Sequence record: DRR723986_4001
Strand: one strand, 5' to 3'
DNA: 38,618 nucleotides
A model generated the notes under the pieces. The model was not told the origin of the DNA. It did no database searches and was given only the letters and a program-made list of their open reading frames with translations. Within the stretch, counting starts at the first letter, position 1; each line of letters begins with the position of its first letter. The translations under genes were made by a program, and so were the position numbers. Positions 1,151-37,208 of the stretch are shown here, piece by piece.

Positions 1151-2169
1151 AAGTCATCGTCGCCGGTCTCGGCAATATGGGGCAGAGCCATGCATTGGCC
1201 TATCACGCACACCCGAGTGCTGAAATTGTCGGGTTGGTCAACCGCTCTGCGGTCGAATTGCCTGCGGCCCTGCAAGGCTATCCGCGCCTGGGCACCTTTG
1301 AAGAAGGCCTTGCCCTGGCCCCTGATCTGGTCTGCATCGCCACCTATTCTGACAGCCACGCACAATACGCCATCGCGGCGATGGAAGCCGGAGCCGATGT
1401 GTTTATAGAAAAGCCGCTGGCCAACACGGTCGAGGATGCAGAGCGTGTCGTCGCCACGGCCAAAAGGCTCGGACGCAAGGTGGTGGTGGGCTATATCCTG
1501 CGCCACCATCCCAGCTGGCAACGGCTGATCACAGAGGCGCGGGCCTTGGGCGGACCGTATGTGTTTCGGATGAACCTCAACCAACAGTCGGACGGCCCCA
1601 CCTGGGAAACCCACAAGGCCTTGATGCGCGACACCAGCCCGATCGTGGACTGCGGCGTACACTACGTGGATGTCATGTGCCAGATCACCGACGCCGCGCC
1701 GGTGCGGGTAAGCGGCATGGGGTTGCGGCTGTCAGATGAGATTGCACCGGACATGTACAATTATGGCCAGTTGCAGGTTTGGTTCGCCGATGGCTCTGTC
1801 GGTTGGTACGAAGCCGGATGGGGGCCGATGATGTCCGAGACCGCGTTCTTCGTCAAAGATGTGGTGTCGCCCAATGGTGCCGTTTCGATCGTCGATAGTG
1901 ACAAGGGCGCATCCGACAATGTGGATGGTCACACCAAAGTGGGCGGATTGCTGGTGCATCGCGCCGAAGGGGACAGCCTGATCGAGCTGCCGGATGAGCC
2001 GGATCACCAACGGCTGTGTGATGCTGAGCAAGCCTTCATGATCGAAGCGATCACCAAAGATATCGACCTCACACGCCACATGAATGACGCGGTGCAATCT
2101 CTCGCGATTTGCCTTGCTGCGGATGAAAGCATCCGCACAGGCCGCCCCATAGACCTAGGAGATATCTGA
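1147..2169 (+). CDS. Gfo/Idh/MocA family NAD(P)-dependent oxidoreductase
   Basis: ATGA overlap with the upstream stop; GLGNMG Rossmann motif, EKP motif, DCGVH motif. Confidence 0.9.
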
Positions 2170-3170
2170 TGACGGCTCTTACCCTGACCAACGTGTGCAA
2201 GTCGTTTGGCACCGTTGAGGTTCTCAAAGACATCAACCTGACCGTTGAGGATGGCGAGTTTGTGGTGTTTGTCGGCCCGTCGGGTTGCGGCAAATCCACA
2301 TTGCTGCGGGTCATCGCGGGCCTTGAAGATGCGACCAGCGGAACGGTGGATATCGGCGGTAACGTTGTGAACCACATCCCCCCTGCCAAGCGCGGCATTG
2401 CGATGGTGTTCCAGTCCTACGCGCTTTATCCACATCTCACTGTGCGCGACAACATGGCGCTGGGTCTCAAACAGGAAAAGCAACCCAAAACCGTCATTGA
2501 TGAGCGGGTGGGCAAGGCCGTCGAAATGCTTGACCTCGGCGCATACGTGGATCGCCGTCCGTCCGATCTGTCTGGCGGCCAACGGCAACGTGTGGCCATA
2601 GGACGCGCCATTGTGCGGGAGCCGAAATTGTTCCTGTTTGACGAACCGCTGTCCAATCTTGACGCCGCTTTGCGTATGAACACCCGGATCGAGATTGCCG
2701 AGCTTCACCGCACCCTCAGCGCCTCGATGATCTATGTGACCCATGACCAGACTGAAGCCATGACACTGGCCGACAAGATCGTCGTGTTGCGCGATGGCCG
2801 GGTTGAGCAGGTCGGCTCTCCGATGGAGCTTTATAACAACCCCGCAAACCAGTTTGTTGCCGGGTTTCTTGGCTCTCCCGCAATGAATTTCCTACACAAA
2901 GCGCCGCTGGCCATTCCAAAGAACGGTGCCTTGGGCATTCGCCCTGAATATCTGCGGGTCCAGAAAGATGGACGGATCAAAGGCACGGTCACTCATGTTG
3001 AGCGCCTTGGCGGAGACACCAATCTGTTGGTGTCCACCGCCGAGCAGGAACACCTTACTGTTCGGATCTTTGGTCAGGACAGCACGCAGGTCGGGGAGAG
3101 CATTCAACTGGATTTTGACGATCATCAGTCCTTTGCCTTTGACGAGCATCGCCAGAGGATCCCTGCCTGA
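2169..3170 (+). CDS. Sugar ABC transporter ATP-binding protein (MalK/UgpC-like)
   Basis: Walker A GPSGCGKS, signature LSGGQRQ, Walker B LFDEP, TOBE-like C-terminus. Confidence 0.95.
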
Positions 3171-3396: not shown

Positions 3397-5286
3397 ATGA
3401 AGAAGCTGGACCTGATCACCATTGGACGGTCATCCGTCGATCTTTATGGCGCCCAAATCGACGGCAAGCTGGAAGATGTACGCGGGTTTCACAAATATAT
3501 CGGAGGATCCCCCACCAACACCGCCTGTGGAACTGCCAAGCTGGGGCTGAAGTCCGCAGTGATCACTGGTGTGGGCGACGAACACATGGGCCGCTTTGTC
3601 ACCGAAGAACTGGCGCGACTTGGCGTTGATACCGCAGGCGTGAAGGTTGACCCGGAGCGGCTCACGGGGTTGGTGCTGCTGGGCATTCGCGACAAAGAGC
3701 AATTTCCCCTGATTTTCTACCGCGAGAATTGCGCTGATATGGGGCTGACCCCGGACGACATAGATCCCGGTTTCATTCGGCAGGCACGTGCGCTGGTCGC
3801 CTCCGGCACCCATCTGAGCCATCCGCAAGTGGCCGCCTCCACCATCAAGGCATTGCAGATCGCGCGGGATGACGGGATGCAAACGGCGTTGGACATTGAT
3901 TACCGGCCCAACCTTTGGGGTGTGGCCGGTCATGGCGATGGCGAGAGCCGGTTTGTCGAAAGCGCCGAAGTGACGGCCAAATTGCAAAACACATTGCATC
4001 TGTTTGATCTGATCGTCGGCACCGAAGAAGAATTTCATATCGCGGGCGGATCGACAAATACCGTTGCGGCCCTGCGTGCGGTCCGGGACAAATCCGATGC
4101 CACGCTGGTGTGCAAGCTGGGCGCAAAGGGGGCTGTGGCCTTTACCGGCGGCATTCCTGATCATGTTGAAAGCGGTCCGGTTGTGCCGGGCTTTCCGATT
4201 GAGGTGTTCAACGTCCTGGGGGCCGGTGACGGCTTTATGGCCGGTTTGCTCAAAGGGTGGCTGGATGGGGAGAATTGGACGCGGGCGATCACATACGCCA
4301 ATGCCTGCGGCGCGCTTGCGGTGTCACGTCACGGCTGCACGCCTGCCTACCCTTCCCTGCAAGAGCTAGAGTTTTTCCTGTCGCGCGGGGTGACCCGGCC
4401 GGATTTGCGCAATGACGCCGAATTGAACCAAGTGCATTGGGCCACCAACCGCAACGGCGATTGGCCGGATCTGCGGGTCTTTGCTTTTGATCACCGGATG
4501 CAGTTGGAAGAACTGGACGGCGCAACCCCAGACAAGATCGGGCGCTTCAAAGAGCTGTGCCTCGACGCGGCGCAGCGCGTCGCCGGGGGGCAGGATGGAT
4601 ATGGGTTTCTGTGCGATGACCGGCTGGGCGAGACCGCATTGCACAGGGCGGCGGGCGGCAGTCTTTGGATTGGTCGTCCGGTTGAATGGCCGGGATCACG
4701 CCCACTGACGCTTGAGCCGTCCCTGGGGCCTGATTTTGGTGGGCTTGAAACATGGCCCGCAGGTCAGGTCGTGAAGGTCTTGTGCTTTTGTCACCCCGAC
4801 GATCCAGCAGAGATGCAACGCGCCCAAGAGGACACCATCACCCGCCTGTTCACAGCCTGCCGCCGCAATGATCTGGAGTTCCTGTTGGAGGTTATTCCGT
4901 CCAAAGTTGGTGATGTCGCGGATGACACAACCGCCCGATTGATCCGGCGGTTTTACGAGATTGGCATTTTTCCCGATTGGTGGAAACTTGAGCCGATGCA
5001 ATCGGCAAACGCCTGGGATCTGGCCAGCGCAGCGATCACGGACAATGATCCGCACTGCCGGGGCATTGTGGTTCTTGGGCTGGGCAAGGACGAGGCGGAG
5101 CTTGCTGCCAGTTTCGAAATTGCCGCGAAACAACCTTTGGTCAAAGGGTTTGCTGTGGGGCGGACAATCTTTGCCAAAAGCGCCAAAGCCTGGATGAAAG
5201 GCGAAATGTCTGACGCCGATGCGGTGGCGCAGATGGCTGCGATCTACCAACGTTTATGTGACATCTGGGACAAGGCGCGGGGCTGA
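3397..5286 (+). CDS. iolC: Bifunctional 5-dehydro-2-deoxygluconokinase / DUF2090 aldolase
   Basis: N-terminal LDLITIGRSSVDLYG, PfkB motif VLGAGDGF, C-terminal FAFDHR...PDWWKLEP...GFAVGRTIF domain; 629 aa. Confidence 0.93.
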   Translation: MKKLDLITIGRSSVDLYGAQIDGKLEDVRGFHKYIGGSPTNTACGTAKLGLKSAVITGVGDEHMGRFVTEELARLGVDTAGVKVDPERLTGLVLLGIRDKEQFPLIFYRENCADMGLTPDDIDPGFIRQARALVASGTHLSHPQVAASTIKALQIARDDGMQTALDIDYRPNLWGVAGHGDGESRFVESAEVTAKLQNTLHLFDLIVGTEEEFHIAGGSTNTVAALRAVRDKSDATLVCKLGAKGAVAFTGGIPDHVESGPVVPGFPIEVFNVLGAGDGFMAGLLKGWLDGENWTRAITYANACGALAVSRHGCTPAYPSLQELEFFLSRGVTRPDLRNDAELNQVHWATNRNGDWPDLRVFAFDHRMQLEELDGATPDKIGRFKELCLDAAQRVAGGQDGYGFLCDDRLGETALHRAAGGSLWIGRPVEWPGSRPLTLEPSLGPDFGGLETWPAGQVVKVLCFCHPDDPAEMQRAQEDTITRLFTACRRNDLEFLLEVIPSKVGDVADDTTARLIRRFYEIGIFPDWWKLEPMQSANAWDLASAAITDNDPHCRGIVVLGLGKDEAELAASFEIAAKQPLVKGFAVGRTIFAKSAKAWMKGEMSDADAVAQMAAIYQRLCDIWDKARG

Positions 5287-5290
5287 CCAT

Positions 5291-6343
5291 TCAGGTCAGC
5301 TCCAACGCATCCTTGTTAAAAGGCACCTCACGGCGGCTGCCGTCTTCACCGCACAGAACAAGATGTTCGTCTGCCAACTCGACCGAGCGAATGGCCGCGC
5401 CGGAGGGCCAGGCAACTGCGCCGATCACATGCGAGACCGACATGGCGCACTCATTGTGCAGCTTGAGGTCTCCCGGTCCGCTCAGCGAAAGGCCGTGATT
5501 GACGCCCAACATGTGCTGGGCTGCGCCCTCTTCGACGCCCAGACATCCCGTATGGCGCCCTGACCACGGCGGGTAATCACGACCGCCATTGGAATGCCAC
5601 AGCATCGTCATCGGCAATTGGTCCGCACGGCGCAGCGACAGGAACACATCCCCCTCGGTCGGCCGCGTGACGGCTGTCCAGCCCAAAGTATGGCCGGGAG
5701 CCTCAACCCCCGAAACAAAGTCCTCATGTCGGTCAAACCAAGGGTAACGGGTCAGATCAACCGTGCCTTCGCGGGCAGGAAACGCAGCCGGATCGGTGGC
5801 GGTCGCCGGATAGGACAGCCCGGACCGGCCTCTGGCGACATCGGGTTCGAGCGGCGATGGCGGGGTCACCCAAGCCTGTTTGGCCGAGGTGCGAATCAAC
5901 CCGCCATTGGGCAGCGAAACATTGGCATGGTTTGACACCGGCACCCGGCCAGAGCCGCCAATGAATGTGTGCCGCTGATAGACAAACGGCTGATCCGGGC
6001 ACAGCCACAACTCTTTGGTCAGGGTCGCGCCCTGAACCGGTTTGGTCAGGCGGGCAGACAAACGATCCGGCGATGCGTTTTGCAGATGCCAGCGGGCGTT
6101 GGGTGGCCAGCCATGAGGCGGCGCGCCGTCCTGTGCTTCGCCAAAGGGCGCACAGAAAAAATCGCCACCCAAATGATAAAGGTGTGGCGGCAATCCATCG
6201 GGCAGAACCTCGCCGGTCTTGTCCCAAGGGGCACGATGCAGCGGCGCGATTTCCCGCGCCCCGTTCATCACCGCAAAGCGGACGATCTGGCCCAAAGAGG
6301 GATCAAACGTCAGGCGAATACCGCGAGAGGCAAGCACAATCAT
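5291..6343 (-). CDS. Hypothetical protein, probable galactose-mutarotase/aldose-epimerase-like fold
   Basis: About 350-aa ORF directly after the PanB-like gene; motifs GDFFCAPFG, HGWPPN, SNHAN, LGVEEG. Start may instead be TTG 6366, overlapping the upstream stop. Confidence 0.65.
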   Translation of the reverse strand: MIVLASRGIRLTFDPSLGQIVRFAVMNGAREIAPLHRAPWDKTGEVLPDGLPPHLYHLGGDFFCAPFGEAQDGAPPHGWPPNARWHLQNASPDRLSARLTKPVQGATLTKELWLCPDQPFVYQRHTFIGGSGRVPVSNHANVSLPNGGLIRTSAKQAWVTPPSPLEPDVARGRSGLSYPATATDPAAFPAREGTVDLTRYPWFDRHEDFVSGVEAPGHTLGWTAVTRPTEGDVFLSLRRADQLPMTMLWHSNGGRDYPPWSGRHTGCLGVEEGAAQHMLGVNHGLSLSGPGDLKLHNECAMSVSHVIGAVAWPSGAAIRSVELADEHLVLCGEDGSRREVPFNKDALELT

Positions 6344-6362
6344 GTCGAAGCGCCAATGCCGC

Positions 6363-7166
6363 TCAAGACCGTGTCTCAAGTTGGTTGCGAAAGGCGTCCA
6401 ACTCATTTTCGGGCATCTTCACCAACTGCTCGTCCTGCGGAAAAGCGCCGGTTTCAACATCCGCGACAAACTCCTGAAACGCCGCGATCCGCTCATTTTG
6501 CAGGCGGTCATACTCGGCCTGAAAATCGCGGTAGACTTTGGCGTGGCGGGGAACGCGGCCTTCGGTATAGCCAAGGATGTCATTGGAAAAGAGGTATTGC
6601 GCATCGCAGCCCGCACCCGCCCCCATGGACCACACAAGGATGTTGACGCGTTTGGAAATCTCGGTCGCCACTTCTTCTGGCACCACTTCCAATTCTATCG
6701 CAATAGCCCCGGCGTTTTCATAGGCTTTCACCTCGTCGAAGAGGCGCAGTGCATCAGCGGCGGTTTTACCAACCGCGCGAAACCCACCCGTCCACGTGGC
6801 GCGGGCCGGTACCAGACCGACATGTCCGACAACGGGAATATACTCCCGCGCCAACATCTCGACCGTTTGCATCGAGCCAGAGCAATAAAGCGCATCCGCT
6901 CCGCGTTCCACTGCGTCATTGCACCAGCGCAGGTAATCCAGCGGCGTGCCGCATTGCGTGTGGGTTTGCCCGGTCATGGAAAATATCGACGGAGCAACCT
7001 CACGGTAACGCGGATCGAACAGAATTTCAGGCGGCACCGAGGCAATATCGACCCCGGCGGTTTCGGCGGCGGCGGCCTCTTCTATTGTGAAATACCGCAA
7101 CATGCTCAGTTGTTTTTTGCCTTTGAGCGCACGCAGATCGGCAACGGTGGGCAATTTGCGGCTCAC
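6363..7166 (-). CDS. Divergent 3-methyl-2-oxobutanoate hydroxymethyltransferase (PanB) family protein
   Basis: GHVGLVP, GAIAIELEVVP, GAGAGCDAQ...DILG and GAFP motifs of PanB present; N-terminal metal-binding motifs missing. Confidence 0.85.
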   Translation of the reverse strand: MSRKLPTVADLRALKGKKQLSMLRYFTIEEAAAAETAGVDIASVPPEILFDPRYREVAPSIFSMTGQTHTQCGTPLDYLRWCNDAVERGADALYCSGSMQTVEMLAREYIPVVGHVGLVPARATWTGGFRAVGKTAADALRLFDEVKAYENAGAIAIELEVVPEEVATEISKRVNILVWSMGAGAGCDAQYLFSNDILGYTEGRVPRHAKVYRDFQAEYDRLQNERIAAFQEFVADVETGAFPQDEQLVKMPENELDAFRNQLETRS

Positions 7167-7474
7167 GGTACGTTCACGAAAACCCGGTCGCCCTCTTTCT
7201 TGGTTTCATATGTGCTCAGATGCTCGCAAGCCGGAGCGCGCAGAGCCTTGCCGGTGCGATAATCAAAGATCCCGTTGTGGCGCGGGCATTCGATTTCGTG
7301 ATCCATGACCATCCCGTCAGACAGGTGGACATGTTCGTGTGTGCAAAGTCCGGCAGTGCAGAAAAATTCGTCATCGGGGCTGCGGATGATCACATAGGTT
7401 TTGTCATTATGGTCCCAGCGGATAACGTCTTCTTCTTCGACATCATCCGCGGCAATTGCGTCAATCCAGGGCAT
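7163..7474 (-). CDS. mocE: Rieske [2Fe-2S] ferredoxin, MocE-like
   Basis: CTHE...CPRH ligand motifs; 103 aa; adjacent to a mocD-like gene. Confidence 0.88.
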   Translation of the reverse strand: MPWIDAIAADDVEEEDVIRWDHNDKTYVIIRSPDDEFFCTAGLCTHEHVHLSDGMVMDHEIECPRHNGIFDYRTGKALRAPACEHLSTYETKKEGDRVFVNVP

Positions 7475-7503
7475 GTATTGCTCCGTTTGGTTAGGTGAGG
7501 GGA

Positions 7504-8640
7504 TTAGCCCGCATCGCTGCGGTCCGGCACATGTTTGTGCAGGAATTCGTTGTAGGGTTTTGCCGTTGGCGGCAGCATCTTGCGCACCGCATAGCTGGGA
7601 TCGCGTCGTTGCTTCATCACCGCGCCCATCATCTCTTTGTAGCCATCCCAGATTGAGGTGTTCGGCGCGGGCAGGTCATGTTTGATCTCATCATGCAACG
7701 CGGGCAGCGCATAATAGGGCACCATGGGAAACATGTGGTGTTCGATGTGATAGTTCATGTTCCAGTAGATCCAGCGGCTGATCGGATTCATATAAAGCGT
7801 GCGGGAATTCAGACGGTGGTCGGTCACGTCCTCGGGCAAACCGCCATGCTGCAACAGCCCGGTCATCACCATATGCCAACAACCATAGACACGCGGACCG
7901 CCAATCAGCAGGATCGGGATTGCAGATTTCCACCCCATCCCATTTGCCAGCATCAGCAGAACTGCCAAGCCCACCAGGGCAAAAAGAGAAAGATGCACAC
8001 GCGCCCAGAACACCGCCTTTGGCCATTCGGTTTCTGGGATGTAATTCCTTTCATCATCGGACAAAACGCCCCGTGCATTGCGCACCAACACCTTGAGTGA
8101 GGCCCAAGTATCGACAACGCCGACAAAGGCCAGCGCCTTGAAAAACAGGTTGACCGGATGCATCCAGGCTATCTCGGGATCGCGCCCAACGATAAGCGTA
8201 TCGGTGTGATGGCGGGCATGGCTCCAACGCCAGTTCACCGGGTTTCGGATGATCTGGAACGAGGCAATGTGATAGACCACATCGTTCATCCAGCGGGTGC
8301 GAAACGGGGTGCCGTGGCCACATTCATGCCAGCGGCTGTCGCAGGCCGAACCATAGATCACCCCATAGGCCAGCCAGAACGGCACTGCGATCCATGAGCC
8401 CCAGAAATAAATCCCTCCAGCCGCAAACAGAACATGGAGCGCGATCCAGATGGCTGTATCCCGCAAGGCCGGACCGTCACGCCGTTTCATCAACGCCTTC
8501 ATGGTCTTGCGGGGGACATCGCTGTGATACCACTCAGCCGCAGCAAGCCCGACCTCCTCGGCATGGCGGCTTGATGCGCCGGTCAGCGAATAGTCTCGGA
8601 CAGGAGAAATCTCGGAATGTGGCTGGGCTGCGTCGCTCAT
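7504..8640 (-). CDS. mocD: Fatty-acid-desaturase-family membrane di-iron oxygenase, MocD-like
   Basis: Three His boxes HECGH, HARHH, HIEHH; hydrophobic segments; followed by a Rieske ferredoxin. Confidence 0.85.
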   Translation of the reverse strand: MSDAAQPHSEISPVRDYSLTGASSRHAEEVGLAAAEWYHSDVPRKTMKALMKRRDGPALRDTAIWIALHVLFAAGGIYFWGSWIAVPFWLAYGVIYGSACDSRWHECGHGTPFRTRWMNDVVYHIASFQIIRNPVNWRWSHARHHTDTLIVGRDPEIAWMHPVNLFFKALAFVGVVDTWASLKVLVRNARGVLSDDERNYIPETEWPKAVFWARVHLSLFALVGLAVLLMLANGMGWKSAIPILLIGGPRVYGCWHMVMTGLLQHGGLPEDVTDHRLNSRTLYMNPISRWIYWNMNYHIEHHMFPMVPYYALPALHDEIKHDLPAPNTSIWDGYKEMMGAVMKQRRDPSYAVRKMLPPTAKPYNEFLHKHVPDRSDAG

Positions 8641-8714
8641 CGGCTCTCATCTGGTTGTCGTTTCTGGCGGCGCGCAATTGTCGATCCCGCTTTTGGTCCG
8701 CGCACTCTGACTTC

Positions 8715-8860
8715 GGGTTCGGTCCAATGTCTTGGGTTCGGTTGCAGCCCGCAAGGCGACAACACATCAGATCACATCAGACAGGCGTACGATCTGTGGT
8801 TTAACCTTCTGAAATTATGGCAACCGATATTTCGTTTGGCTTGGAAACAGACCGATGTGA
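8715..8860. repeat. Short direct and inverted repeats in the divergent mocD/SDR intergenic region
   Basis: GGGTTCGGT at 8715-8723 and 8734-8742; CACATCAGA at 8763-8771 and 8773-8781; near-inverted copy CCGATGTGA at 8852-8860. Confidence 0.4.
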
Positions 8861-9089
8861 GGTAATTTGATGGAATTGATCGGGACTATCCCTCCCTGCC
8901 CGGTCACTATCTGTACCAAGGATTTGATTCGATCTTTGGAGAGCGCCGGTGCCACGCAGAACAATCTGGGATATCGCCCAACGTGTTGTCATCCCAGCGG
9001 ACATTTTCACGGATCTTGCCCCCTGCCCTCACGGCGCAAATTTCTGACCCAATCGGGCAGCCATCTTTTCACACAGAACGGACCCCGCG

Positions 9090-9890: not shown

Positions 9891-10916
9891 TCAAGTCCTC
9901 AGCGGCGCAGTGCTTTCGCGGACGATCAATTCGACCGGGATCGGCACTTCGGGCGTGCGTTCAAGGCTTTTGTTTTTCAACCGGTCCAAAAGCACCCGCG
10001 CAGCGCGGCGGCCCAATCCGTGGCGGTCTTGCCGGATCGTTGTCAGTGCCGGAATATAGTATTCGGACATTTCGATGTCGTCGAACCCGACGACAGATAT
10101 ATCTTCTGGCACCCGCAATCCGCCGCTCTTTAGCCCCGCCATCAGGCCAAAGGCCACCATGTCGGCCGAACAAAAGACAGCTGTGGGCCGGTCGTCCATG
10201 GCCAGAATGCGGGTTGCTGCGTCATGCCCCGATTCCAGTGAAAAATCACCCCGGATGATCCATTCAGGTTGCGCCGGCAAGCCAAGTCGGGCGCGTTCGG
10301 ATACCATGCCCTCCCGCCGGGCCGTGGTCAGAACATTGCCGTCCGGTCCTGTAATATGGGCGATCTTGCGATGCCCAAGATCATGTAGATGCCGAATGGC
10401 AAGCCGCGCCCCTTCGGCGTTGTCACTGGAAATGACGGGGAACTTTTGGCCTTCGACCCATTCACACAAAAAGACGATCCGGTCCTCGACCCCAAGATCG
10501 ACGCATTCCTGCAAAGCCGAGGCCCGCACTCCGCCATCCAGAGAAATCACACCATCAACACGACCATCCAAAAAGTATCCGGCAAGGGCGGAATCAACAA
10601 TCGGATCACTGTCCGTATCGGCGATCAGAACCGCATAGTCCGTGCCAGAGAATTCTTCGCTGATGCCTGCCAGAATACCCGAATAAAACGGCTTGCCGAG
10701 ATTGGGCACCAGAACAAGCACCGCATTTGCGCGTTGCAGACGCAGATTTCGTGCCGCCTGATTGACCCTGTATTCGGTGCTCTTGATCGCTTGGAGCACA
10801 GTTTCGCGGGTGGTGTCGCTGACCAGACTGGGGTTGGTCAAAACCCGGCTGACCGTCGCGGCTGACACCCCCGCTGCACGGGCCACATCCTGAATTGTTG
10901 CGGGTTTCTGAATCAT
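9891..10916 (-). CDS. LacI family transcriptional regulator
   Basis: HTH TIQDVARAAGVSAATVSRVL; C-terminal VPEDISVVGFDD...PALTTIRQ. Confidence 0.95.
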   Translation of the reverse strand: MIQKPATIQDVARAAGVSAATVSRVLTNPSLVSDTTRETVLQAIKSTEYRVNQAARNLRLQRANAVLVLVPNLGKPFYSGILAGISEEFSGTDYAVLIADTDSDPIVDSALAGYFLDGRVDGVISLDGGVRASALQECVDLGVEDRIVFLCEWVEGQKFPVISSDNAEGARLAIRHLHDLGHRKIAHITGPDGNVLTTARREGMVSERARLGLPAQPEWIIRGDFSLESGHDAATRILAMDDRPTAVFCSADMVAFGLMAGLKSGGLRVPEDISVVGFDDIEMSEYYIPALTTIRQDRHGLGRRAARVLLDRLKNKSLERTPEVPIPVELIVRESTAPLRT

Positions 10917-20703: not shown

Positions 20704-22218
20704 TCAAAGCAGGTCGACCGGCAGCAGGTCTTGCGGAACGTTCTGATAGCAAACGGGGCGAAGGAAACGGCGGATAGCGAGGGTGCCAACGGATGTCGCA
20801 CCAAAGTTGGTAGAGGCGGGATAGGGGCCACCGTGGACCATCGCATCGCAGACCTCAACGCCGGTCGGAAAACCATTGACCATGATCCTGCCCGCTTTGC
20901 GTTCCAGCACGGGCATCAGCATTTGCGCGATCGGTGTATCGCTGTCGTTCATGTGTAGGGTGCAGGTCAGCTGCCCGTCCAAAGCCTGGGCTATTTCGAG
21001 CATCTCAGAGGTGTCGGCAGCACGGATGATCAGGCCCACGGGGCCAAAGATTTCTTCGCCCAGCGCAGGATTTGCCAGCCATTCTGCCCCGCTGGCGGTG
21101 AATAGGTTGGGCGTTGCAGTGCGGCCTTTGCAAGTCGAGGTGGACAATACCTCAACGCCTGTGTTGGCCGCCATGCGTTCACATCCGTCGCGGTAAGCTG
21201 CGGCGATACCATCCGTCAGCATTGTCTGGGGGCCAACCGGCTGCAGTGATTTGGCCGCGGCGATCGCGAAGGCATCCGCATCTGGTCCGTCCACCATCAC
21301 GACCGTACCTGGATTGGTGCAAAACTGGCCTGCCCCCATGGTCAGTGATCCGGCCCAGCCGGACGCAATTTCGTCGCTGCGCGTCTTGAGCGCTTCTGGA
21401 AGCAGGAACATCGGATTGATGCTGCCGAGCTCGCCGAAAAACGGGATTGGTGTTGGCCGTGCAGCACATAGATCAAACAAGGCACGCCCGCCTCCGAGTG
21501 AGCCGGTAAAGCCCACCGCAGTGATCAGCGGATGCTGGACCAGCGCTTGCCCCATTTCGCGTGTGTCGCCTTGCAAGAAGCTGAACGTGCCCGGCGCGAC
21601 GTCGCATTTGGCAATGGCGGCGCGGATCGCCTCTGCGATGATCTCGCCGGTCCCGGGATGCGCCGGGTGTCCCTTGACCACCACAGGACAGCCCGCCGCC
21701 AACGCCGAGGCAGTGTCACCCCCGGCGGTTGAAAACGCCAAGGGAAAGTTTGACGCGCCAAAGACGGCCACCGGGCCGATGGGGCGTTGCACCATCTTCA
21801 GGTCAGGTCGGGGCAGCGGTGCCCGGTCTGGCAAGGCCGCATCGTGGCGACGGTCGCGGTGCGCACCGCCCAGAATGTGATCGGCGAACAGACGCAACTG
21901 ACCCGTGGTGCGGCCCCTTTCGCCCTGAAGCCGCGCTTCGGGAAGTCCGGTCTCCTGGGTGCCAATCGCGGTGATGTCATCCCCGCGGGCATCAATTTCG
22001 TCTGCGATGGTATTCAGGAACGCCGCGCGTTCTTGAACACCAGAATAGCCAAAGGACCAAAAGGCCTCATGCGCGGCGCAGCAGGCCAGATCAACCTCAG
22101 CGGTGCTGGCCACACAAAAGCTATGGGCTTTGCCGTGCGCAGGCGATGATACGAAACGGACGTCGTTTTCCACCCATTCGCCGTTGATCAGATGTTTGCC
22201 ATGGGGTTGTAATGTCAT
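20704..22218 (-). CDS. NADP-dependent aldehyde dehydrogenase, probable alpha-ketoglutaric semialdehyde dehydrogenase
   Basis: FGASNFPLAFS, GFTGS, ELGSINP, GQFCTNPG, HGGPYPAS; last gene of the arabinose operon. Confidence 0.9.
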   Translation of the reverse strand: MTLQPHGKHLINGEWVENDVRFVSSPAHGKAHSFCVASTAEVDLACCAAHEAFWSFGYSGVQERAAFLNTIADEIDARGDDITAIGTQETGLPEARLQGERGRTTGQLRLFADHILGGAHRDRRHDAALPDRAPLPRPDLKMVQRPIGPVAVFGASNFPLAFSTAGGDTASALAAGCPVVVKGHPAHPGTGEIIAEAIRAAIAKCDVAPGTFSFLQGDTREMGQALVQHPLITAVGFTGSLGGGRALFDLCAARPTPIPFFGELGSINPMFLLPEALKTRSDEIASGWAGSLTMGAGQFCTNPGTVVMVDGPDADAFAIAAAKSLQPVGPQTMLTDGIAAAYRDGCERMAANTGVEVLSTSTCKGRTATPNLFTASGAEWLANPALGEEIFGPVGLIIRAADTSEMLEIAQALDGQLTCTLHMNDSDTPIAQMLMPVLERKAGRIMVNGFPTGVEVCDAMVHGGPYPASTNFGATSVGTLAIRRFLRPVCYQNVPQDLLPVDLL

Positions 22219-22230
22219 GGTTTGCTCTCC

Positions 22231-23148
22231 TCATTTGCCCCAGCGCAAGGCGATGAGGTCATGCTCACTTGCCAGTTGCAGCAATCGGGCTTTGGTTCTT
22301 TGGGACATAGGCTTTAGCGGGTGGCGCACGTGGTCCGATCCAATGACGCCCCCCGCCATCATGACGGTTTTGGCCGCGCGCAACCCACATTGGCGGTTCT
22401 CGTGGTTGATCAACGGCAAACACAGTTTCCATTGCTCCAATGCACCATCCAAATCGCCCGCTAGATACCGGGTGACGATGGGCCGGATCAGTTCCGGTTG
22501 CAGTGCGGAGGTCATGGTGCCTTTTGCGCCTGCGTCCAGATCGGCCAATAGTGTGACGGCCTCTTCGCCATCAAAAGGCCCGACGATGTGATCACCGCCC
22601 GCGTCGATCAAAGCGGCGAGTTTGTCCGCAGCGAAGGGCGTTTCCATTTTGAAATAGCTGACATTCTCAATCTCGCGGGCCATTTTCACCAATGTTGGCA
22701 CTGTCAGGGTGACGCCCGACAGTGGTGCATCCTGCACCATGATCGGGATGTTGGCAGCCTCGGAAACCGCTTGAAAATGTTCAAAAACCCCTACTTCGGA
22801 TGGAACAAGTCCGACACCATGATAGGGCGGCATCATCATGATCATCGATGCGCCCATGGCCTCAGCTTCAACCGCGCGTGCCACCGCGATCTGCGTGGAA
22901 AAGTGACTGGTGGTAACAATCATCGGCACACGACCCGCCACATGTTCGAGGCTCACACGGGTTAGTCTGGCGCGTTCTTCGTCAGACAGGACAAATTGTT
23001 CGGAATAGTTCGCCAGAATACAGATGGCATCGACCCCTTGGTCAATCATGCAATCCAATACCCGGCGCATTCCGTCTTCATCTACGGTGCCATCAGACTG
23101 AAAAGGCGTTGGCGCAACGGGCAGGATGCCTGTTAGTGGATTTTGCAT
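22231..23148 (-). CDS. L-2-keto-3-deoxyarabonate dehydratase (DHDPS family)
   Basis: ILANYSEQF, MPPYHG, QDAP, YFKME, DGEEA, LPLINHENRQ, matching the Azospirillum-type L-KDA dehydratase as I recall it. Confidence 0.88.
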   Translation of the reverse strand: MQNPLTGILPVAPTPFQSDGTVDEDGMRRVLDCMIDQGVDAICILANYSEQFVLSDEERARLTRVSLEHVAGRVPMIVTTSHFSTQIAVARAVEAEAMGASMIMMMPPYHGVGLVPSEVGVFEHFQAVSEAANIPIMVQDAPLSGVTLTVPTLVKMAREIENVSYFKMETPFAADKLAALIDAGGDHIVGPFDGEEAVTLLADLDAGAKGTMTSALQPELIRPIVTRYLAGDLDGALEQWKLCLPLINHENRQCGLRAAKTVMMAGGVIGSDHVRHPLKPMSQRTKARLLQLASEHDLIALRWGK

Positions 23149-23235
23149 CGCGGTTCTCCTTGATTACCGGGGCGGTCGTTCGGTGTTGAGCATGGCCAAG
23201 AGCCATCGCGCAGCAAAACGGCCATCTGCAGGGGC

Positions 23236-24165
23236 TTATTCGAAAAAAGGGGCGACCGAGATGCGGCGTCCCAGGGTGAAGGCATCAGCTACATGGCGCA
23301 TCGGGGCCAAGTCCATGTCGATACCACCATGGCTGACCAAATCAGCCATCCGCGCGTAAAGTCTGGGATATTCGCCTTGCAGGCTCAATTGATCCTGATC
23401 CAGTATGTCCGAGCCGTCGATGGTCAGCTTCGCGCCTCCCTCTGACAGAACCAGCGTGCCTTGCCCGGTTTCCACTTCGATGGTCCAGATTTGTTCACCG
23501 CTTTGCCGGAAATCAAAAACCGCACCGACCTGCGCCCCCTTGGGGTGGCTGAATTCCATCGAGGCCGCAATGGGGGTCTGACAGTTTTCCGGAACCTCCA
23601 AAAGTGCGCTTTGCACGTGGATCGGGTCTGGCAGGATTTCTGTCACAATGGACAGCGCATTGATGCCTGGGTCAAACACGCCCAGACCACCCGGTTGCCA
23701 GATCCAGTCCTGGCCCGGATGCCAGCGGCGCACGTCTTCTTTCCATGTGACAGACAGCCTGCGCAGGGTTTTGTCGGCCAACCACTGTTTGGCATATGCA
23801 ACTCCTGCCGCTTCGCGCGAGTGCCAGGTTGCAAAGAGCGACACCCGGTGTTCTCTCGCCACGGCCTCAAGCCTGTGGCATTCTGACAATGTCGCCCCCG
23901 GTGGTTTCTCCAGCATGACGTGCCGACCGGCCCGAATGGCCGATTGGGCCGCCGCATAGCGCGGCACCGGCGGCAGGCAGAGCGAGACGACGCGAATGTC
24001 ACCACAACTCTGCAACATCTCTTCCAGATCGGTATAGGCATCGACACCCTCGACCGTGCCGCGGCGGGACACAGTGGCGGCCAGTTCCCAGTCAGAGGAT
24101 GCAGCGATAGCTGGCACATGCTGATCCACGGCAATCTTGCCGATCCCTACAAGAGCGATTTTCAT
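23236..24165 (-). CDS. L-arabinose/D-galactose 1-dehydrogenase (Gfo/Idh/MocA)
   Basis: GIGKIAVDQH, LEKPP, WKEDVRRWHPGQDWIW, GVFDPGINALS; TGATG overlap with the upstream gene. Confidence 0.9.
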   Translation of the reverse strand: MKIALVGIGKIAVDQHVPAIAASSDWELAATVSRRGTVEGVDAYTDLEEMLQSCGDIRVVSLCLPPVPRYAAAQSAIRAGRHVMLEKPPGATLSECHRLEAVAREHRVSLFATWHSREAAGVAYAKQWLADKTLRRLSVTWKEDVRRWHPGQDWIWQPGGLGVFDPGINALSIVTEILPDPIHVQSALLEVPENCQTPIAASMEFSHPKGAQVGAVFDFRQSGEQIWTIEVETGQGTLVLSEGGAKLTIDGSDILDQDQLSLQGEYPRLYARMADLVSHGGIDMDLAPMRHVADAFTLGRRISVAPFFE

Positions 24166-25907
24166 CAATGGGAGTCCTTTCCAACAGGTGCGCCGCGGCA
24201 CCCTTTGAGAAAATTGAGGTCCGCGCCCGTGTCGGCCCCTTCGACATGCGCCTGATGCAGCCAGGCATAGCCCGAAGCGGCCATCTCATGACGCGGTGTC
24301 CATTTCGAAAGACGCGCTGCCAGATCAGCCTCGGATATCTCCAAATGCAACCGGCGGCCTGCCACATCGACCTCGATCATGTCACCGTTTTGAACCACCG
24401 CTAGCGGCCCGCCTGCGGCAGCTTCGGGGGAGGTGTGCAGAATAACAGTGCCGTAAGCTGTGCCGGACATGCGGGCGTCCGAAATGCGAATCATGTCCTT
24501 GATCCCTTTCTTCAGCACCTTTGGGGGCAGGCCCATGTTGCCGACCTCGGCCATGCCGGGATAGCCTTTAGGCCCACAATTTTTCAGCACCATGATACAG
24601 GTTTCGTCAATATCAAGCGTATCATCGTTGATCCGCGCCTTGTAATCGTCAATGTCCTCAAACACGACAGCCCGGCCACGGTGCTGCATCAGGTGCGGTG
24701 ACGCGGCGGAGGGTTTCAAGATCGCGCCCCGCGGGGCGAGGTTGCCTTTCAGGACTGCGATACCGCCATTTGTGGTGAGCGGTTTATCCACCGGCCGGAT
24801 CACATCTTCGTTCCAGTTGACCGCCTCTTTGACTTCATCCCAGACGGTTTCACCCGAAACCGTCAGCGCATTTTTGTGAAGTTTGCCAGCCTCACCCAAG
24901 CGTTTGAGAACGACAGGCAATCCGCCGGCATAAAAGAACTCTTCCATCAAGTATTCGCCTGAGGGCTGGAGGTTCAGAATGGTCGACACGTCGCGCCCGC
25001 AGCGATCCCAATCATCCAATGTGACGTCCACGCCTATGCGCCCGGCAATGGCCAACATATGCACGACCGTGTTTGTCGAGCCGCCAACCGCGCCATTGCA
25101 ACGGATCGCGTTCTCAAACGCGTTTTTGGTCAGAATGTCGGAAGGTTTCAGATCGTCTTTCACCATCTGCACAATCCGGCGGCCGGACAATTGCGCCATC
25201 ACGCGGCGGCGGCTGTCAACGGCGGGGATCGCCGCATTGCCGGAGAGCGCCATGCCGAGAGCTTCGGACATGGACGCCATGGAAGAGGCGGTGCCCATCG
25301 TGTTGCAGGTGCCCGAAGACCGGGTCACGGCGGATTCAGCACTCAGAAACGCCTCTTGGGTCATCTCTCCGGCTTTCACGGCTTCGGAAAAACGCCACAA
25401 ATGCGTGCCCGCCCCGACCCGTTCCCCTTGGAACCAGCCGTTCAGCATTGGCCCACCCGTGACCACGATTGAGGGGAGGTCGCAGGACGCGGCCGCCATC
25501 AACAAGGACGGCGTGGTCTTGTCACAGCCCACCATCAGCACGCATCCATCCATGGGTTGACCACGGATCTGTTCCTCGATCGACAACGCCGCAAGATTGC
25601 GAAACATCATCGCCGTCGGGCGAAAGGTGTTCTCTGACGCTGAAAAAACCGGCACTTCCATCGGAAAACCGCCGGCTTCCCAAATCCCAGCTTTAACCTT
25701 TTCCGCCAATTCCCGCAGATGGCCATTGCAGGGGGTCATGTCTGACCAAGTGTTCAAAATGCCGATGATCGGGCGACCATCGAACAGATCATCCGGGTAG
25801 CCTTGATTTTTCATCCAGCCGCGGTGGTAGATCACGTCCTTGGTGCTGCCTTCGTACCATGCGGCAGAGCGCAGCTTGCGGGGCCATTTTGCGGGCTTAA
25901 ATTGCAT
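24165..25907 (-). CDS. araD: L-arabinonate dehydratase (IlvD/Edd family)
   Basis: TPCN, GCDKT, GTCNTMGTAS, DARMSGT motifs; operon context. Confidence 0.88.
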   Translation of the reverse strand: MQFKPAKWPRKLRSAAWYEGSTKDVIYHRGWMKNQGYPDDLFDGRPIIGILNTWSDMTPCNGHLRELAEKVKAGIWEAGGFPMEVPVFSASENTFRPTAMMFRNLAALSIEEQIRGQPMDGCVLMVGCDKTTPSLLMAAASCDLPSIVVTGGPMLNGWFQGERVGAGTHLWRFSEAVKAGEMTQEAFLSAESAVTRSSGTCNTMGTASSMASMSEALGMALSGNAAIPAVDSRRRVMAQLSGRRIVQMVKDDLKPSDILTKNAFENAIRCNGAVGGSTNTVVHMLAIAGRIGVDVTLDDWDRCGRDVSTILNLQPSGEYLMEEFFYAGGLPVVLKRLGEAGKLHKNALTVSGETVWDEVKEAVNWNEDVIRPVDKPLTTNGGIAVLKGNLAPRGAILKPSAASPHLMQHRGRAVVFEDIDDYKARINDDTLDIDETCIMVLKNCGPKGYPGMAEVGNMGLPPKVLKKGIKDMIRISDARMSGTAYGTVILHTSPEAAAGGPLAVVQNGDMIEVDVAGRRLHLEISEADLAARLSKWTPRHEMAASGYAWLHQAHVEGADTGADLNFLKGCRGAPVGKDSH

Positions 25908-25908
25908 C

Positions 25909-27138: not shown

Positions 27139-27149
27139 GTCCCTGTCTC

Positions 27150-28673: not shown

Positions 28674-28694
28674 CCCGCCCACATGAATATCAGA

Positions 28695-28720
28695 GTCTGC
28701 CCACCCAAAGGCGGACAGAC
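28695..28720 (-). terminator. Stem-loop between chvE and mmsA
   Basis: Minus strand GTCTGTCCGCC-TTTG-GGTGGGCAGAC, 11-bp stem including two G-U pairs. Confidence 0.6.
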
Positions 28721-28736
28721 CCAGGGAGAATTCCGG

Positions 28737-29789: not shown

Positions 29790-29914
29790 TGTTTCCTCCC
29801 AAGGATGCGCGTTCAATCCAGATGTGTCGCGCGTTTCTCTTTGCGAGCGATGAGGCTCCTGCCTTGCATAGCGCAGGATCTCATGACAATAAAATGTAAG
29901 TATTGGTGAATAAC

Positions 29915-29930
29915 ATATCAATATTGATAT
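29915..29930. promoter_or_regulatory. Probable LysR (GbpR) binding site
   Basis: Perfect 16-bp palindrome ATATCAATATTGATAT in the AT-rich chvE/LysR divergent region. Confidence 0.7.
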
Positions 29931-29941
29931 ATTGGTGACTT

Positions 29942-36332: not shown

Positions 36333-36336
36333 CCCG

Positions 36337-37122: not shown

Positions 37123-37208
37123 CTGCCAGCCCTCGCCGACAGCGATTCCGCATTCATTTTGGCTGGGGCGACACCCCAATAGCATGACAAAAGCACACGC
37201 GGCTCCAT
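37119..37208 (-). other. Possible 29-aa leader ORF or gene remnant (MEPRVLLSCYWGVAPAKMNAESLSARAGR)
   Basis: AAGGAGG SD 5 nt before ATG 37208; its TGA overlaps the creatininase start codon (ATGA). Confidence 0.4.

What the first reader, a model, noticed from the sequence alone, without database searches (positions are those of the whole stretch)
6363..7166. PanB paralogue that has lost the Mg2+/2-oxo-acid binding residues but keeps the catalytic base
Seen (alignment by eye): canonical LVGDS, D(M/L)PF and VK(I/L)EGG are replaced by IASVPPE, FSMTGQTH and LYCSGS, while GHVGLVP and ELEVVP are kept. Known: E. coli PanB uses D45/D84/E114 for Mg2+, K112 for the substrate and E181 as the base. Inference: not a pantothenate enzyme but possibly a metal-independent (retro-)hydroxymethyltransferase or aldolase acting on a non-2-oxo-acid ketone. 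Automated annotation would mislabel it panB.
Basis: partly seen in the sequence, partly recalled or inferred. Interest (0 to 1): 0.7.

Follow-up and report, generated by a model that had tools for sequence, protein, structure and literature searches.

The report
Oxygenase-linked PanB-like enzyme, not PanB
A gene that databases label as the vitamin-B5 enzyme PanB is a remodelled relative that travels with methyl-group-oxidising oxygenases in marine and root-nodule bacteria, and it probably hands the released one-carbon unit to folate rather than making pantothenate.

Summary
ORF 6363-7166(-) has a PanB TIM-barrel fold. It has lost the D84, K112 and E114 equivalents (G66, Y94, deletion) and a ~19-residue loop after the GDS motif. 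It keeps H136 and E181 (H115, E160).

This is a family trait, not decay. 121 relatives share the pattern, and they split from canonical PanB with full support in a quick tree.

The gene is fourth-frame-coupled in an operon: MocD-like di-iron oxygenase, MocE Rieske ferredoxin, PanB-like gene (GTGA start/stop overlap), then a mutarotase-fold protein.

In 301 Rhodobacteraceae genomes, 62 of 114 family genes lie within 12 kb of a MocD-like gene (well under 1 expected by chance). Of the other 52, 50 were inspected and 37 sit beside another oxygenase part.

Rhizobial plasmids carry mocD-mocE-(mocF)-"panB". The nearest genome lacks both canonical PanB and PanC.

So this is not a pantothenate enzyme, and the panB label is wrong. 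The best mechanistic guess (about 0.45, inferred) is a tetrahydrofolate-dependent acceptor of the C1 unit released by methyl-group hydroxylation. No description was found in the papers searched.

The parts
7504..8640 (-). MocD-like membrane di-iron oxygenase (378 aa), first gene of the operon
   Evidence: PF00487 FA_desaturase at 118 bits. The histidine boxes HECGH, HARHH and HIEHH are visible in the translation. 93% identical in S. mediterraneus locus L015. 60-72% identical to the 'fatty acid desaturase family protein' that precedes MocE on rhizobial plasmids.
7163..7474 (-). MocE-family Rieske [2Fe-2S] ferredoxin (103 aa)
   Evidence: TIGR02377 MocE_fam_FeS at 149.2 bits, cut-off 136.15. PF00355 Rieske. 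Its TGA stop overlaps the GTG start of the next gene as GTGA.
6363..7166 (-). PanB-like protein ('PanBL', 267 aa): the finding
   Evidence: PF02548 on the C-terminal half only. Below the NCBIfam panB cut-offs. hhalign to canonical PanB at 99.9%. AlphaFold pLDDT 94.6. Foldseek top hits are PanB structures, TM 0.68-0.73. The D84, K112 and E114 equivalents are lost across the family.
5291..6343 (-). Galactose-mutarotase-fold protein with no Pfam family, last gene of the operon. The ORF is open to 6406, but the likely start is the ATG at 6343, 19 nt after the PanBL stop.
   Evidence: No Pfam or NCBIfam hit. AlphaFold pLDDT 76.4, all-beta. Foldseek hits aldose 1-epimerase-like structures: 3nre at E 6.9e-10, YeaD 2hta at TMt 0.66. 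Start inferred from the homologue consensus 'MIxLxAxGI' and the sequence. Found fused behind PanBL in P0271 and P0272.
9891..10916 (-). LacI-family regulator near the operon; a possible regulator, not shown to be one
   Evidence: PF00356 plus Peripla_BP_3. Homologues of 73-99% identity lie near the module in L015, L016, L032 and L040. In R. etli, R. johnstonii and S. meliloti a LacI gene lies directly upstream of mocD.

Best explanation
ORF 6363-7166(-) belongs to a distinct, widespread clade of PanB-fold proteins that I call PanBL. It is not ketopantoate hydroxymethyltransferase.

The half of the barrel that in PanB holds Mg2+ and the 2-oxo acid (strands b2-b4) has been rebuilt. The other half (b5-b8, with H115, E160, D188, D196) is conserved. 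I infer that this conserved half includes the 5,10-methylene-tetrahydrofolate site.

PanBL is co-transcribed with a MocD-like di-iron oxygenase and its MocE Rieske ferredoxin.

Proposed mechanism (inferred, not shown):
1. The oxygenase hydroxylates a methyl group, most likely an O-methyl ether of an imported sugar or cyclitol. This gives a hemiacetal that releases formaldehyde.
2. PanBL runs the folate half of the PanB reaction, using E160 as acid/base. It condenses that C1 unit with tetrahydrofolate to give 5,10-methylene-THF.
3. The demethylation therefore feeds C1 metabolism instead of releasing free formaldehyde.
4. The mutarotase-fold protein downstream may open the hemiacetal or handle the demethylated sugar.
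For: Shown:
1. PanB fold with the canonical site lost family-wide, and H136/E181 kept.
2. A separate clade. 97 PanBL rows split from 9 canonical rows at SH-aLRT 100 in a quick tree. There are 124 clusters at 50% identity with E<=1e-30.
3. Operon structure with a GTGA overlap to mocE.
4. Neighbourhood in 301 Rhodobacteraceae genomes:
- 62 of 114 PanBL genes lie within 12 kb of one of 116 MocD-like genes. My estimate of the chance expectation is about 0.3.
- 17 of 20 orthologue loci have MocD adjacent.
- 16 of 20 paralogue loci have MocD and/or MocE.
- Of the 52 genes without MocD, 50 were fetched. 37 of those lie within 6 kb of another oxygenase part: FA_hydroxylase PF04116, Rieske alpha PF00355+PF00848, a ~30%-identity MocD, MocE, or a MocF-like reductase.
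- Acidimicrobiia loci have a Rieske alpha gene 3.8 kb upstream.
5. Three unrelated oxygenase types and differing substrate contexts (sugar/LacI/ABC; aldolase-II/creatinase-like) share only PanBL. This argues for a common product or cosubstrate.
6. Rhizobia carry LacI | mocD-mocE-(mocF)-'panB' in R. etli, R. johnstonii 3841 and S. meliloti 1021. Plasmid counts are nearly equal: Rhizobium 142 PanBL against 144 MocD, Sinorhizobium 87 against 85.
7. The minimal R. etli operon is transporter + MocDE + PanBL + mutarotase-like, with no dehydrogenase.
8. Not pantothenate. PanC was not found in G001, G009 or G108, all of which hold PanBL. Canonical PanB was not found in G001.
9. 26 of 92 MocD-holding genomes have no PanBL. 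This fits an accessory, C1-salvaging role.
Against: - No call shows folate binding. Where THF sits in PanB is my assumption.
- FolD and PurU are not near PanBL in 5 of 5 genomes checked.
- Formaldehyde condenses with THF spontaneously (stated in PMC4814558, passages read), so an enzyme may be unnecessary.
- Genomes keep up to 5 PanBL paralogues, and the clades track the oxygenase type (33 label changes against a shuffled mean of 64.4). The former substrate loops vary between paralogues. This fits a substrate-specific role better than a generic trap.
- PanBL is fused to the sugar-binding-type mutarotase fold in P0271 and P0272. That may mean it acts on the carbohydrate.
- 13 of the 50 inspected MocD-less genes, and a ~54%-identity clade, stand alone beside housekeeping genes.
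- Invariant E158, H208 and H115 could form a new metal site.
Confidence: 0.45

Rival explanations
1. Hydroxymethyl lyase, a refinement of the reader's idea. The oxygenase hydroxylates a C-methyl branch to C-CH2OH. After oxidation of a neighbouring carbon to a ketone, PanBL runs the PanB reaction backwards and removes the hydroxymethyl group to THF from a non-2-oxo-acid ketone.
For: - E181 (E160), the residue recalled as PanB's catalytic base, is invariant.
- The former substrate loops differ between paralogues, and clades track the oxygenase type. Both would be expected for a substrate-specific enzyme.
- GFO/IDH/MocA dehydrogenases and AP_endonuc_2 genes are frequent neighbours.
- AlkB/XylM-type and FA_hydroxylase-type enzymes typically oxidise C-methyl groups (recalled).
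Against: - The minimal R. etli operon has no dehydrogenase.
- The rhizobial mocDEF-'panB' units also lack one.
- The electrophilic catalyst (Mg ligands, K112) needed to stabilise an enolate is gone.
- The same protein family accompanies Rieske oxygenases in non-sugar contexts.
- 26 of 92 MocD-holding genomes lack PanBL. That is odd for an obligatory pathway step.
Confidence: 0.12
2. A folate-independent enzyme acting on the oxygenase product or on the carbohydrate itself. It could be a hemiacetal lyase, enolase-type isomerase or epimerase that uses E158/E160/H115/H208, possibly with a metal at a relocated site, together with the mutarotase-fold protein.
For: - Fusion with the mutarotase-fold domain in two protein clusters, P0271 and P0272.
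- Family-specific invariant E158, R207 and H208, and Y94 in 110 of 121.
- Module-specific paralogues.
- No folate genes nearby.
Against: - The part of the barrel shared with PanB is exactly the part not needed for 2-oxo-acid binding. That conservation is unexplained if folate is not used.
- The family also occurs beside Rieske oxygenases in clusters without sugar genes.
- The fusions were not confirmed at DNA level: no fused frame among 401 genomes.
Confidence: 0.2
3. A non-catalytic partner: a scaffold, chaperone or effector subunit of the membrane oxygenase that has kept only the fold.
For: - Loss of the canonical catalytic metal site.
- Tight translational coupling to mocE.
- Irregular database proteins join PF02548 with FA_desaturase (P0277, P0278) or Pyr_redox_2 (P0276).
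Against: - About 16 polar residues at the barrel mouth are invariant or nearly so across 34-98% identity. This is typical of an active site.
- Many MocD-like genes work without it (60 of 116 have one nearby, 56 do not).
- The FA_desaturase and reductase fusion proteins are partial or irregular and unverified.
Confidence: 0.08
4. A true but divergent ketopantoate hydroxymethyltransferase, as annotated.
For: - PF02548 is above its gathering score.
- Source names call it 3-methyl-2-oxobutanoate hydroxymethyltransferase.
- G293 has PanC but no canonical PanB over the cut-off.
Against: - It is below both NCBIfam panB cut-offs.
- The D84, K112 and E114 equivalents are absent in the whole family.
- PanC was not found in 3 of 5 PanBL-holding genomes checked.
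- It coexists with canonical panBC in G006 and G154.
- It sits in an oxygenase operon.
Confidence: 0.03

Closest known systems
Ketopantoate hydroxymethyltransferase PanB (PF02548 / TIGR00222; structures 1m3u, 1oy0, 3vav, 1o66)
   Same: - Same TIM-barrel fold (Foldseek E 2.4e-19, TM 0.68-0.73; hhalign 99.9%).
- 23-30% identity.
- Shared H136, E181, the D of CDGQ, the D of DxLG, and the GxG strand b7.
   Different: - D84 becomes G/A/S, K112 becomes Y, and the E114 segment is deleted.
- About 19 residues after the GDS motif are deleted.
- A 7-residue insertion and a C-terminal helix are added.
- PKF becomes PRH, and VxE becomes ExE.
- Below the equivalog cut-off.
- Not linked to panC; linked to oxygenases instead.
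MocD/MocE/MocF oxygenase system of rhizopine (3-O-methyl-scyllo-inosamine) catabolism (Bahar et al. 1998, recalled; cited in passages of PMC10107442 and PMC5789663)
   Same: - The two upstream genes are a MocD-type FA_desaturase-family oxygenase and a MocE-family ferredoxin above the TIGR02377 cut-off.
- Inositol-type neighbours: IolC+DUF2090, GFO/IDH/MocA, AP_endonuc_2.
- The model for that system is O-demethylation.
   Different: - The published model names no PanB-like component (recalled; the passages read mention only mocDEF).
- There is no MocF-type reductase among the window ORFs scanned.
- Whether true rhizopine clusters carry PanBL was not tested.
- The substrate here is unknown.
Folate-binding C1-acceptor domains of oxidative demethylases (GcvT-like domains of dimethylglycine oxidase, sarcosine oxidase and TMAO demethylase; recalled)
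   Same: The proposed job is the same: take the formaldehyde-level carbon made by an oxidative demethylation and deliver it as 5,10-methylene-THF.
   Different: There is no sequence or fold relation, since PanBL is a PanB-type TIM barrel. PanBL is a separate protein, not a domain of the oxidase. Folate use by PanBL is inferred only.
Cytochrome P450 demethylases of 6-O-methyl-D-galactose in marine Bacteroidota (PMC6292453; search listing and abstract start only)
   Same: Oxidative removal of methyl ethers from algal carbohydrates by marine bacteria. This is a plausible ecological analogue.
   Different: A different oxygenase family (P450 rather than di-iron/Rieske). I know of no folate-type partner in that system. 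The substrate of the present module is unknown.

Membership tests
PanB / ketopantoate hydroxymethyltransferase (equivalog TIGR00222, PRK00311) | Score above the curated whole-protein cut-off of the equivalog model | tested here: not met
   TIGR00222 scores 103.5 bits against a cut-off of 207.55. NF001452 scores 128.8 against 272. Both match only the C-terminal half.
PanB / ketopantoate hydroxymethyltransferase | Mg2+ ligands (E. coli D45, D84, E114) and substrate lysine K112 (roles recalled) | tested here: not met
   The positions are P46 (with E47 next to it), G66, a deletion, and Y94. Family-wide, D occurs at the D84 column in 1 of 121, the E114 column is a gap in 121 of 121, and Y occurs at K112 in 110 of 121.
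PanB / ketopantoate hydroxymethyltransferase | Catalytic glutamate E181 and H136 | tested here: met
   E160 and H115 are invariant in 121 of 121.
PanB / ketopantoate hydroxymethyltransferase | Works in a genome with pantoate-beta-alanine ligase PanC (pathway context) | tested here: not met
   PF02569 was not found in G001 (the nearest genome, 99% complete), G009 or G108. It was found in G006 and G293. The window's own assembly is not held.
PanB / ketopantoate hydroxymethyltransferase | Ketopantoate formation from 2-oxoisovalerate and CH2-THF; complementation of panB | not testable with these tools
   Needs an enzyme assay or genetics.
Pfam PF02548 Pantoate_transf / PEP-mutase-isocitrate-lyase superfamily fold | Domain score above the gathering threshold and a (beta/alpha)8 PanB-type fold | tested here: met
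   143.2 bits against 28.7. Model pLDDT 94.6. Foldseek hits PanB chains first, then isocitrate-lyase/PEP-mutase members at E about 1e-7.
Moc-type (MocD/MocE) oxygenase module | MocE-family Rieske ferredoxin next to a FA_desaturase-family oxygenase with histidine boxes | tested here: met
   TIGR02377 scores 149.2 against 136.15. PF00487 scores 118 bits. His boxes are visible in the translation. The pair is conserved in 17 of 20 orthologue loci.
Moc-type (MocD/MocE/MocF) oxygenase module | Ferredoxin reductase MocF in the cluster | tested here: not met
   No Pyr_redox_2 protein appears among the window ORFs scanned. One is present between mocE and PanBL in S. meliloti 1021 and R. johnstonii 3841.
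Folate-dependent C1 acceptor of oxidative demethylases ('works like', not membership) | Binds tetrahydrofolate and forms 5,10-methylene-THF from the demethylation product | not testable with these tools
   THF is not among the ligands offered for co-folding. No folate-bound PanB structure was seen in the calls. This is inference from which half of the barrel is conserved.

The most novel reading that the evidence does not exclude
PanBL, together with the mutarotase-fold protein, is a 'finishing module' for O2-dependent demethylases. The mutarotase-like protein opens the R-O-CH2OH hemiacetal made by di-iron or Rieske methyl hydroxylases. The PanB-derived barrel then transfers the nascent formaldehyde directly to tetrahydrofolate.

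That would be the first PanB-fold, 2-oxo-acid-independent formaldehyde/THF-condensing enzyme. It would explain how algal- and plant-associated alphaproteobacteria use methylated sugars and cyclitols without releasing free formaldehyde.
Probability: 0.3. Interest if true: 0.8.

Novelty: new variant of a known kind. Interest (0 to 1): 0.62.

Why it matters
1. Annotation. A large family is systematically mislabelled as panB. It comprises 124 clusters at 50% identity with E<=1e-30. It occurs in 77 of 301 Rhodobacteraceae genomes and on hundreds of rhizobial plasmids. The mislabel creates false pantothenate prototrophy calls, for example in Sulfitobacter, where canonical panB was not found in 21 of 25 genomes.

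2. Biochemistry. The family shows a PanB barrel whose 2-oxo-acid/Mg half was rebuilt while the other half stayed. It is recruited as a standing partner of three oxygenase families. If it traps C1 on folate, it is a new solution to formaldehyde handling in oxidative demethylation.

3. Ecology. The modules are multiplied (up to 5 per genome) in algae- and plant-associated bacteria. They sit next to sugar/cyclitol transporters. This points to methylated carbohydrates as an under-studied substrate class.

4. Tractability. Model strains carry the module (S. meliloti 1021 pSymB, R. johnstonii 3841 pRL11), so the idea can be tested directly.

Tried and rejected
- Complex prediction of MocD with PanBL gave 'no answer' (score 0.00; my alignments were not used). 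It is evidence neither way.
- The earlier-findings look-ups returned nothing.
- The ESM Atlas only returned clusters auto-named as the panB family.
- Looking for folate genes next to PanBL (FolD, PurU in 5 genomes) found none nearby.
- Reads and contigs:
  - Short contigs from one metatranscriptome (X18) lie on mocD and mocE only.
  - Two runs only guessed to be RNA (X17, X19) carry fragments on all four genes.
  - No contig bridges a gene junction by 31 letters on both sides.
  - DNA carry-over cannot be excluded, so transcription and co-transcription are not shown.
- Long open frames that looked like fusions are upstream read-through in high-GC DNA, not fusions. These are the L026 608-aa frame (Pfam finds only PanB at 368-562) and the L052 677-aa frame.
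- Database proteins joining PF02548 to FA_desaturase (P0277, P0278), Pyr_redox_2 (P0276) or a glycosidase (P0274) are partial or irregular. I do not rely on them.
- The weak second PF02548 hit in G001 (L002, 21.8 bits) is a PEP_mutase-family protein, not PanB.
- The 'membrane protein' after PanBL in R. johnstonii is NrtR-like and belongs to the nad genes.
- Literature searches found no paper describing this family. 'PanB-like' occurs in 0 papers. PMC3008233 is not held.
- The careful tree did not finish, so the quick tree is used.
Full report
**What is at the coordinates**

- Pfam's PanB model PF02548 matches only residues 88-244, profile positions 106-258 of 259, at 143 bits.
- The two NCBIfam panB models score at half their cut-offs or less: TIGR00222 103.5 against 207.55, NF001452 128.8 against 272.
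- Against solved structures, only PanB chains match, and only over query residues 72-248 (5 distinct sequences at E<=1).

**The replacements are real**

Three alignments agree.
- In the HMMER alignment to E. coli PanB (1m3u), counting from chain position 92 gives K112 opposite Y94, E114 opposite S96, and E181 opposite E160.
- MAFFT with nine canonical PanB proteins taken from related genomes shows four changes:
  - LVGDS is replaced by IASVPPE.
  - About 19 residues after it are missing.
  - DMPFGSY is replaced by FSMTGQTH.
  - VKLEGG is replaced by LYC--SGS.
- A profile-profile comparison gives 99.9% probability, E 3e-34 and 250 aligned columns over the whole length (42 family members against 7 canonical). 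It puts P46 at the GDS aspartate, G66 at the DMPF aspartate and Y94 at the lysine, and it deletes the EGG segment.
- The AlphaFold model is confident (pLDDT 94.6). Its best Foldseek matches are PanB structures (3vav E 2.4e-19, TM 0.69; 1oy0 TMt 0.73), followed by isocitrate-lyase/PEP-mutase superfamily members.

The catalytic roles of the E. coli residues are recalled, not taken from a call.

**It is a family, not a decayed copy**

- The word-indexed search found thousands of relatives. The 120 best are 72-100% identical, and wherever a source names them the name is 3-methyl-2-oxobutanoate hydroxymethyltransferase.
- The exhaustive search found 124 clusters at 50% identity with E<=1e-30.
- Named genomes holding it include Sulfitobacter mediterraneus (98% identical), Dinoroseobacter, Silicimonas, Acidimicrobiia and an Akkermansiaceae MAG.
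- In 121 aligned members:
  - The D84 column is G/A/S, with D in 1 of 121.
  - K112 is Y in 110.
  - The E114 column is a gap in all 121.
  - H136, E181 and the D of DxLG are kept in all 121.
  - The D of CDGQ is kept in 113.
- The family has its own invariants: E158 (119 of 121), R207 (114), H208 (121), plus K15, R55, D91, W125 and K134.
- The D45 column is variable, and 90 of 121 members have an acid within one column (E47 in the query). A relocated metal site cannot be excluded.
- In a quick maximum-likelihood tree, the 97 family rows separate from the 9 canonical rows with SH-aLRT 100. The careful search did not finish.

**Operon in the window**

The minus strand carries four genes in order.
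1. A MocD-like FA_desaturase-family oxygenase (7504-8640), with HECGH, HARHH and HIEHH boxes.
2. A MocE-family Rieske ferredoxin (7163-7474), which scores above the TIGR02377 cut-off.
3. The PanB-like gene. Its GTG start overlaps the mocE TGA stop as GTGA.
4. After 19 nt, a protein without any Pfam family. Its model has a galactose-mutarotase-like fold.

The surroundings are carbohydrate or cyclitol catabolism. They include IolC fused to DUF2090, several GFO/IDH/MocA dehydrogenases, SDRs, an AP_endonuc_2 protein, LacI and ribose-type ABC transporters.

**The neighbourhood is conserved far beyond this genome**

- In 301 Rhodobacteraceae genomes I counted 114 full-length family genes in 77 genomes and 116 MocD-like genes at E<=1e-40 in 92 genomes.
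- 62 of the 114 lie within 12 kb of a MocD-like gene, and 60 of the 116 MocD-like genes have a family gene within 12 kb. Given about one MocD-like gene per 10 Mb, I estimate fewer than one such pair by chance.
- Of 20 fetched orthologue loci (62-76% identity), 17 have MocD adjacent and 18 have MocD or MocE.
- Of 20 paralogue loci (35-55% identity), 16 have MocD and/or MocE.
- Of the 52 genes without a close MocD, 50 were fetched.
  - 37 lie within 6 kb of another oxygenase part. These parts are an FA_hydroxylase-family di-iron enzyme (PF04116), a Rieske oxygenase alpha subunit (PF00355+PF00848), a ~30%-identical MocD, MocE, or a MocF-like reductase.
  - 13 have none.
- In total, 99 of the 112 family genes examined sit beside an oxygenase component.
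- One cluster type (L071, L095, L096) has class-II aldolase, Rieske alpha, one or two PanB-like genes and an FA_hydroxylase, with a creatinase-like gene next to it in L071. That context is quite different from the sugar operons.
- Acidimicrobiia loci have a Rieske alpha and a PhyH dioxygenase 3-4 kb upstream.
- Family clades track the oxygenase type (33 label changes against a shuffled mean of 64.4).

**Rhizobia**

- tblastn on plasmids finds the family in 142 Rhizobium, 87 Sinorhizobium and 9 Ensifer records. MocD is found in 144, 85 and 9.
- R. etli pRetNXC12e has LacI | fatty acid desaturase family protein - MocE family ferredoxin - '3-methyl-2-oxobutanoate hydroxymethyltransferase' - binding protein - permease - ATPase - hypothetical. 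The hypothetical is the mutarotase-fold homologue, 55% identical.
- R. johnstonii 3841 pRL11 has LacI | MocD - MocE - FAD-dependent oxidoreductase - 'panB'.
- S. meliloti 1021 pSymB has the same order, with a Pyr_redox_2 reductase. A passage of PMC11387232 names these genes LacI SM_b20817, mocD SM_b20818, mocE SM_b20819 and mocF SM_b20820. The PanB-like gene is the next one; I did not verify its tag.
- Passages of PMC10107442 and PMC5789663 describe mocDEF as the oxygenase part of rhizopine catabolism and mention no PanB-like gene.

**Not pantothenate**

- The window's own assembly is not held.
- The nearest genome, G001 (99% complete; its copy is 98% identical), has only this gene and a PEP_mutase-family protein as PF02548 hits. 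It has no PanC.
- PanC was also not found in G009 and G108, which hold the family gene. It was found in G006 and G293.
- Canonical PanB over the cut-off was found in 9 of 41 relatives and in 4 of 25 Sulfitobacter genomes.
- G006 and G154 have both canonical PanB and the family gene.

**How it most likely works**

Shown:
- The fold, the loss of the canonical site, the retained half-barrel, the operon, and the statistical link to methyl-oxidising oxygenases.

Inferred:
- The retained half (b5-b8 with H115, E160, D188, D196) includes the folate site.
- The common denominator of three oxygenase families in unlike substrate contexts is the C1 product.

I therefore propose that the oxygenase hydroxylates a methyl group, most likely an O-methyl ether of a sugar or cyclitol. 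PanBL then condenses the resulting formaldehyde-level carbon with tetrahydrofolate to form 5,10-methylene-THF.

Two observations fit this reading.
- The minimal R. etli operon (transporter, MocDE, PanBL, mutarotase-like) fits 'demethylate an imported compound to a common sugar'.
- 26 of 92 MocD-holding genomes lack PanBL, which fits an accessory role.

My confidence is about 0.45.

**What speaks against it**

- No call shows folate binding.
- FolD and PurU are not nearby.
- The formaldehyde-THF reaction is spontaneous (PMC4814558, passages).
- Each module keeps its own paralogue, with variable former substrate loops.
- Two protein clusters, P0271 (648 aa) and P0272 (687 aa), fuse PanBL to the mutarotase-fold domain at 51% identity to the window's protein. 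This hints at action on the carbohydrate. The fusion was not confirmed at DNA level, and no fused frame was found in 401 Rhodobacterales genomes.
- A ~54%-identity clade stands alone beside housekeeping genes.

The rivals are listed with odds in their own section: a retro-aldol hydroxymethyl lyase, a folate-independent enzyme with a new metal site, a non-catalytic partner, and a true PanB.

**Novelty and prior work**

Nine literature searches found no description of this family. NCBIfam release 20 has no model for it. Supplementary tables could not be seen.

I rate it a new variant of a known kind: a PanB-fold family with a rebuilt active site and a new, conserved partnership. Interest is 0.62.

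Noticed in passing
P0271, P0272 (proteins): Natural-looking fusions of the PanB-like protein (N-terminal, 72% identical to the query) with the mutarotase-fold protein (C-terminal, 51% identical to window 5291-6406). They come from several sources, on contigs up to 226 kb.
   Followed up: partly
L012 (G010:C37:6560-10321), ORF 1456-2319(+): A third PanB variant. It gives a full-length PF02548 match (289 bits) and passes the TIGR00222 cut-off (256 bits). Its DMPF aspartate is serine and its EGG glutamate is glutamine (LTSMPYG, LKLQLGG).
   Followed up: partly
Genus of the window (G001-G025); G001, G009, G108, G293: Canonical panB was not found in 21 of 25 Sulfitobacter genomes searched. PanC was not found in G001, G009 or G108, so pantothenate auxotrophy is possible. 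G293 has PanC but no canonical PanB over the cut-off.
   Followed up: partly
L071 5911-7581 (G139:C13); P0121, P0273: Two PanB-like genes sit in tandem directly after a Rieske oxygenase alpha gene. Separately, single chains of 540-542 aa hold two PanB-like repeats.
   Followed up: partly
window 3397-5286 (+): A 629-aa fusion of a PfkB kinase with DUF2090 (IolC-type). It marks the neighbourhood as inositol-type catabolism.
   Followed up: no
window 20704-30859: Aldehyde dehydrogenase, DHDPS-family protein, GFO/IDH/MocA, ILVD_EDD dehydratase, an ABC transporter and a LysR regulator. Together they look like an oxidative (non-phosphorylative) sugar-acid route.
   Followed up: no
window 32768-37185 (-): A cluster of a TauD-family dioxygenase, an FAD_binding_4 oxidase, an amidohydrolase and a creatininase. 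The 411-aa ORF at 30921-32156 has no Pfam family.
   Followed up: no
plasmid collection: 103 Enterococcus plasmid records gave tblastn hits at E<=1e-20 to the query. These are presumably canonical plasmid-borne panB, but they were not inspected.
   Followed up: no
L114 11514-12512 (R. johnstonii 3841 pRL11): The gene annotated 'membrane protein' after the PanB-like gene carries an NrtR winged-helix domain. It precedes nadA, the L-aspartate oxidase gene and nadC, so it is probably the NAD regulator rather than part of the moc-type module.
   Followed up: partly
window 5200-9000; runs X1-X10: DNA with 48-77% of the sampled 31-mers of this locus is held by marine biofilm, aquaculture, algae, protist, plastisphere and seawater metagenome runs from seven studies.
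   Followed up: no
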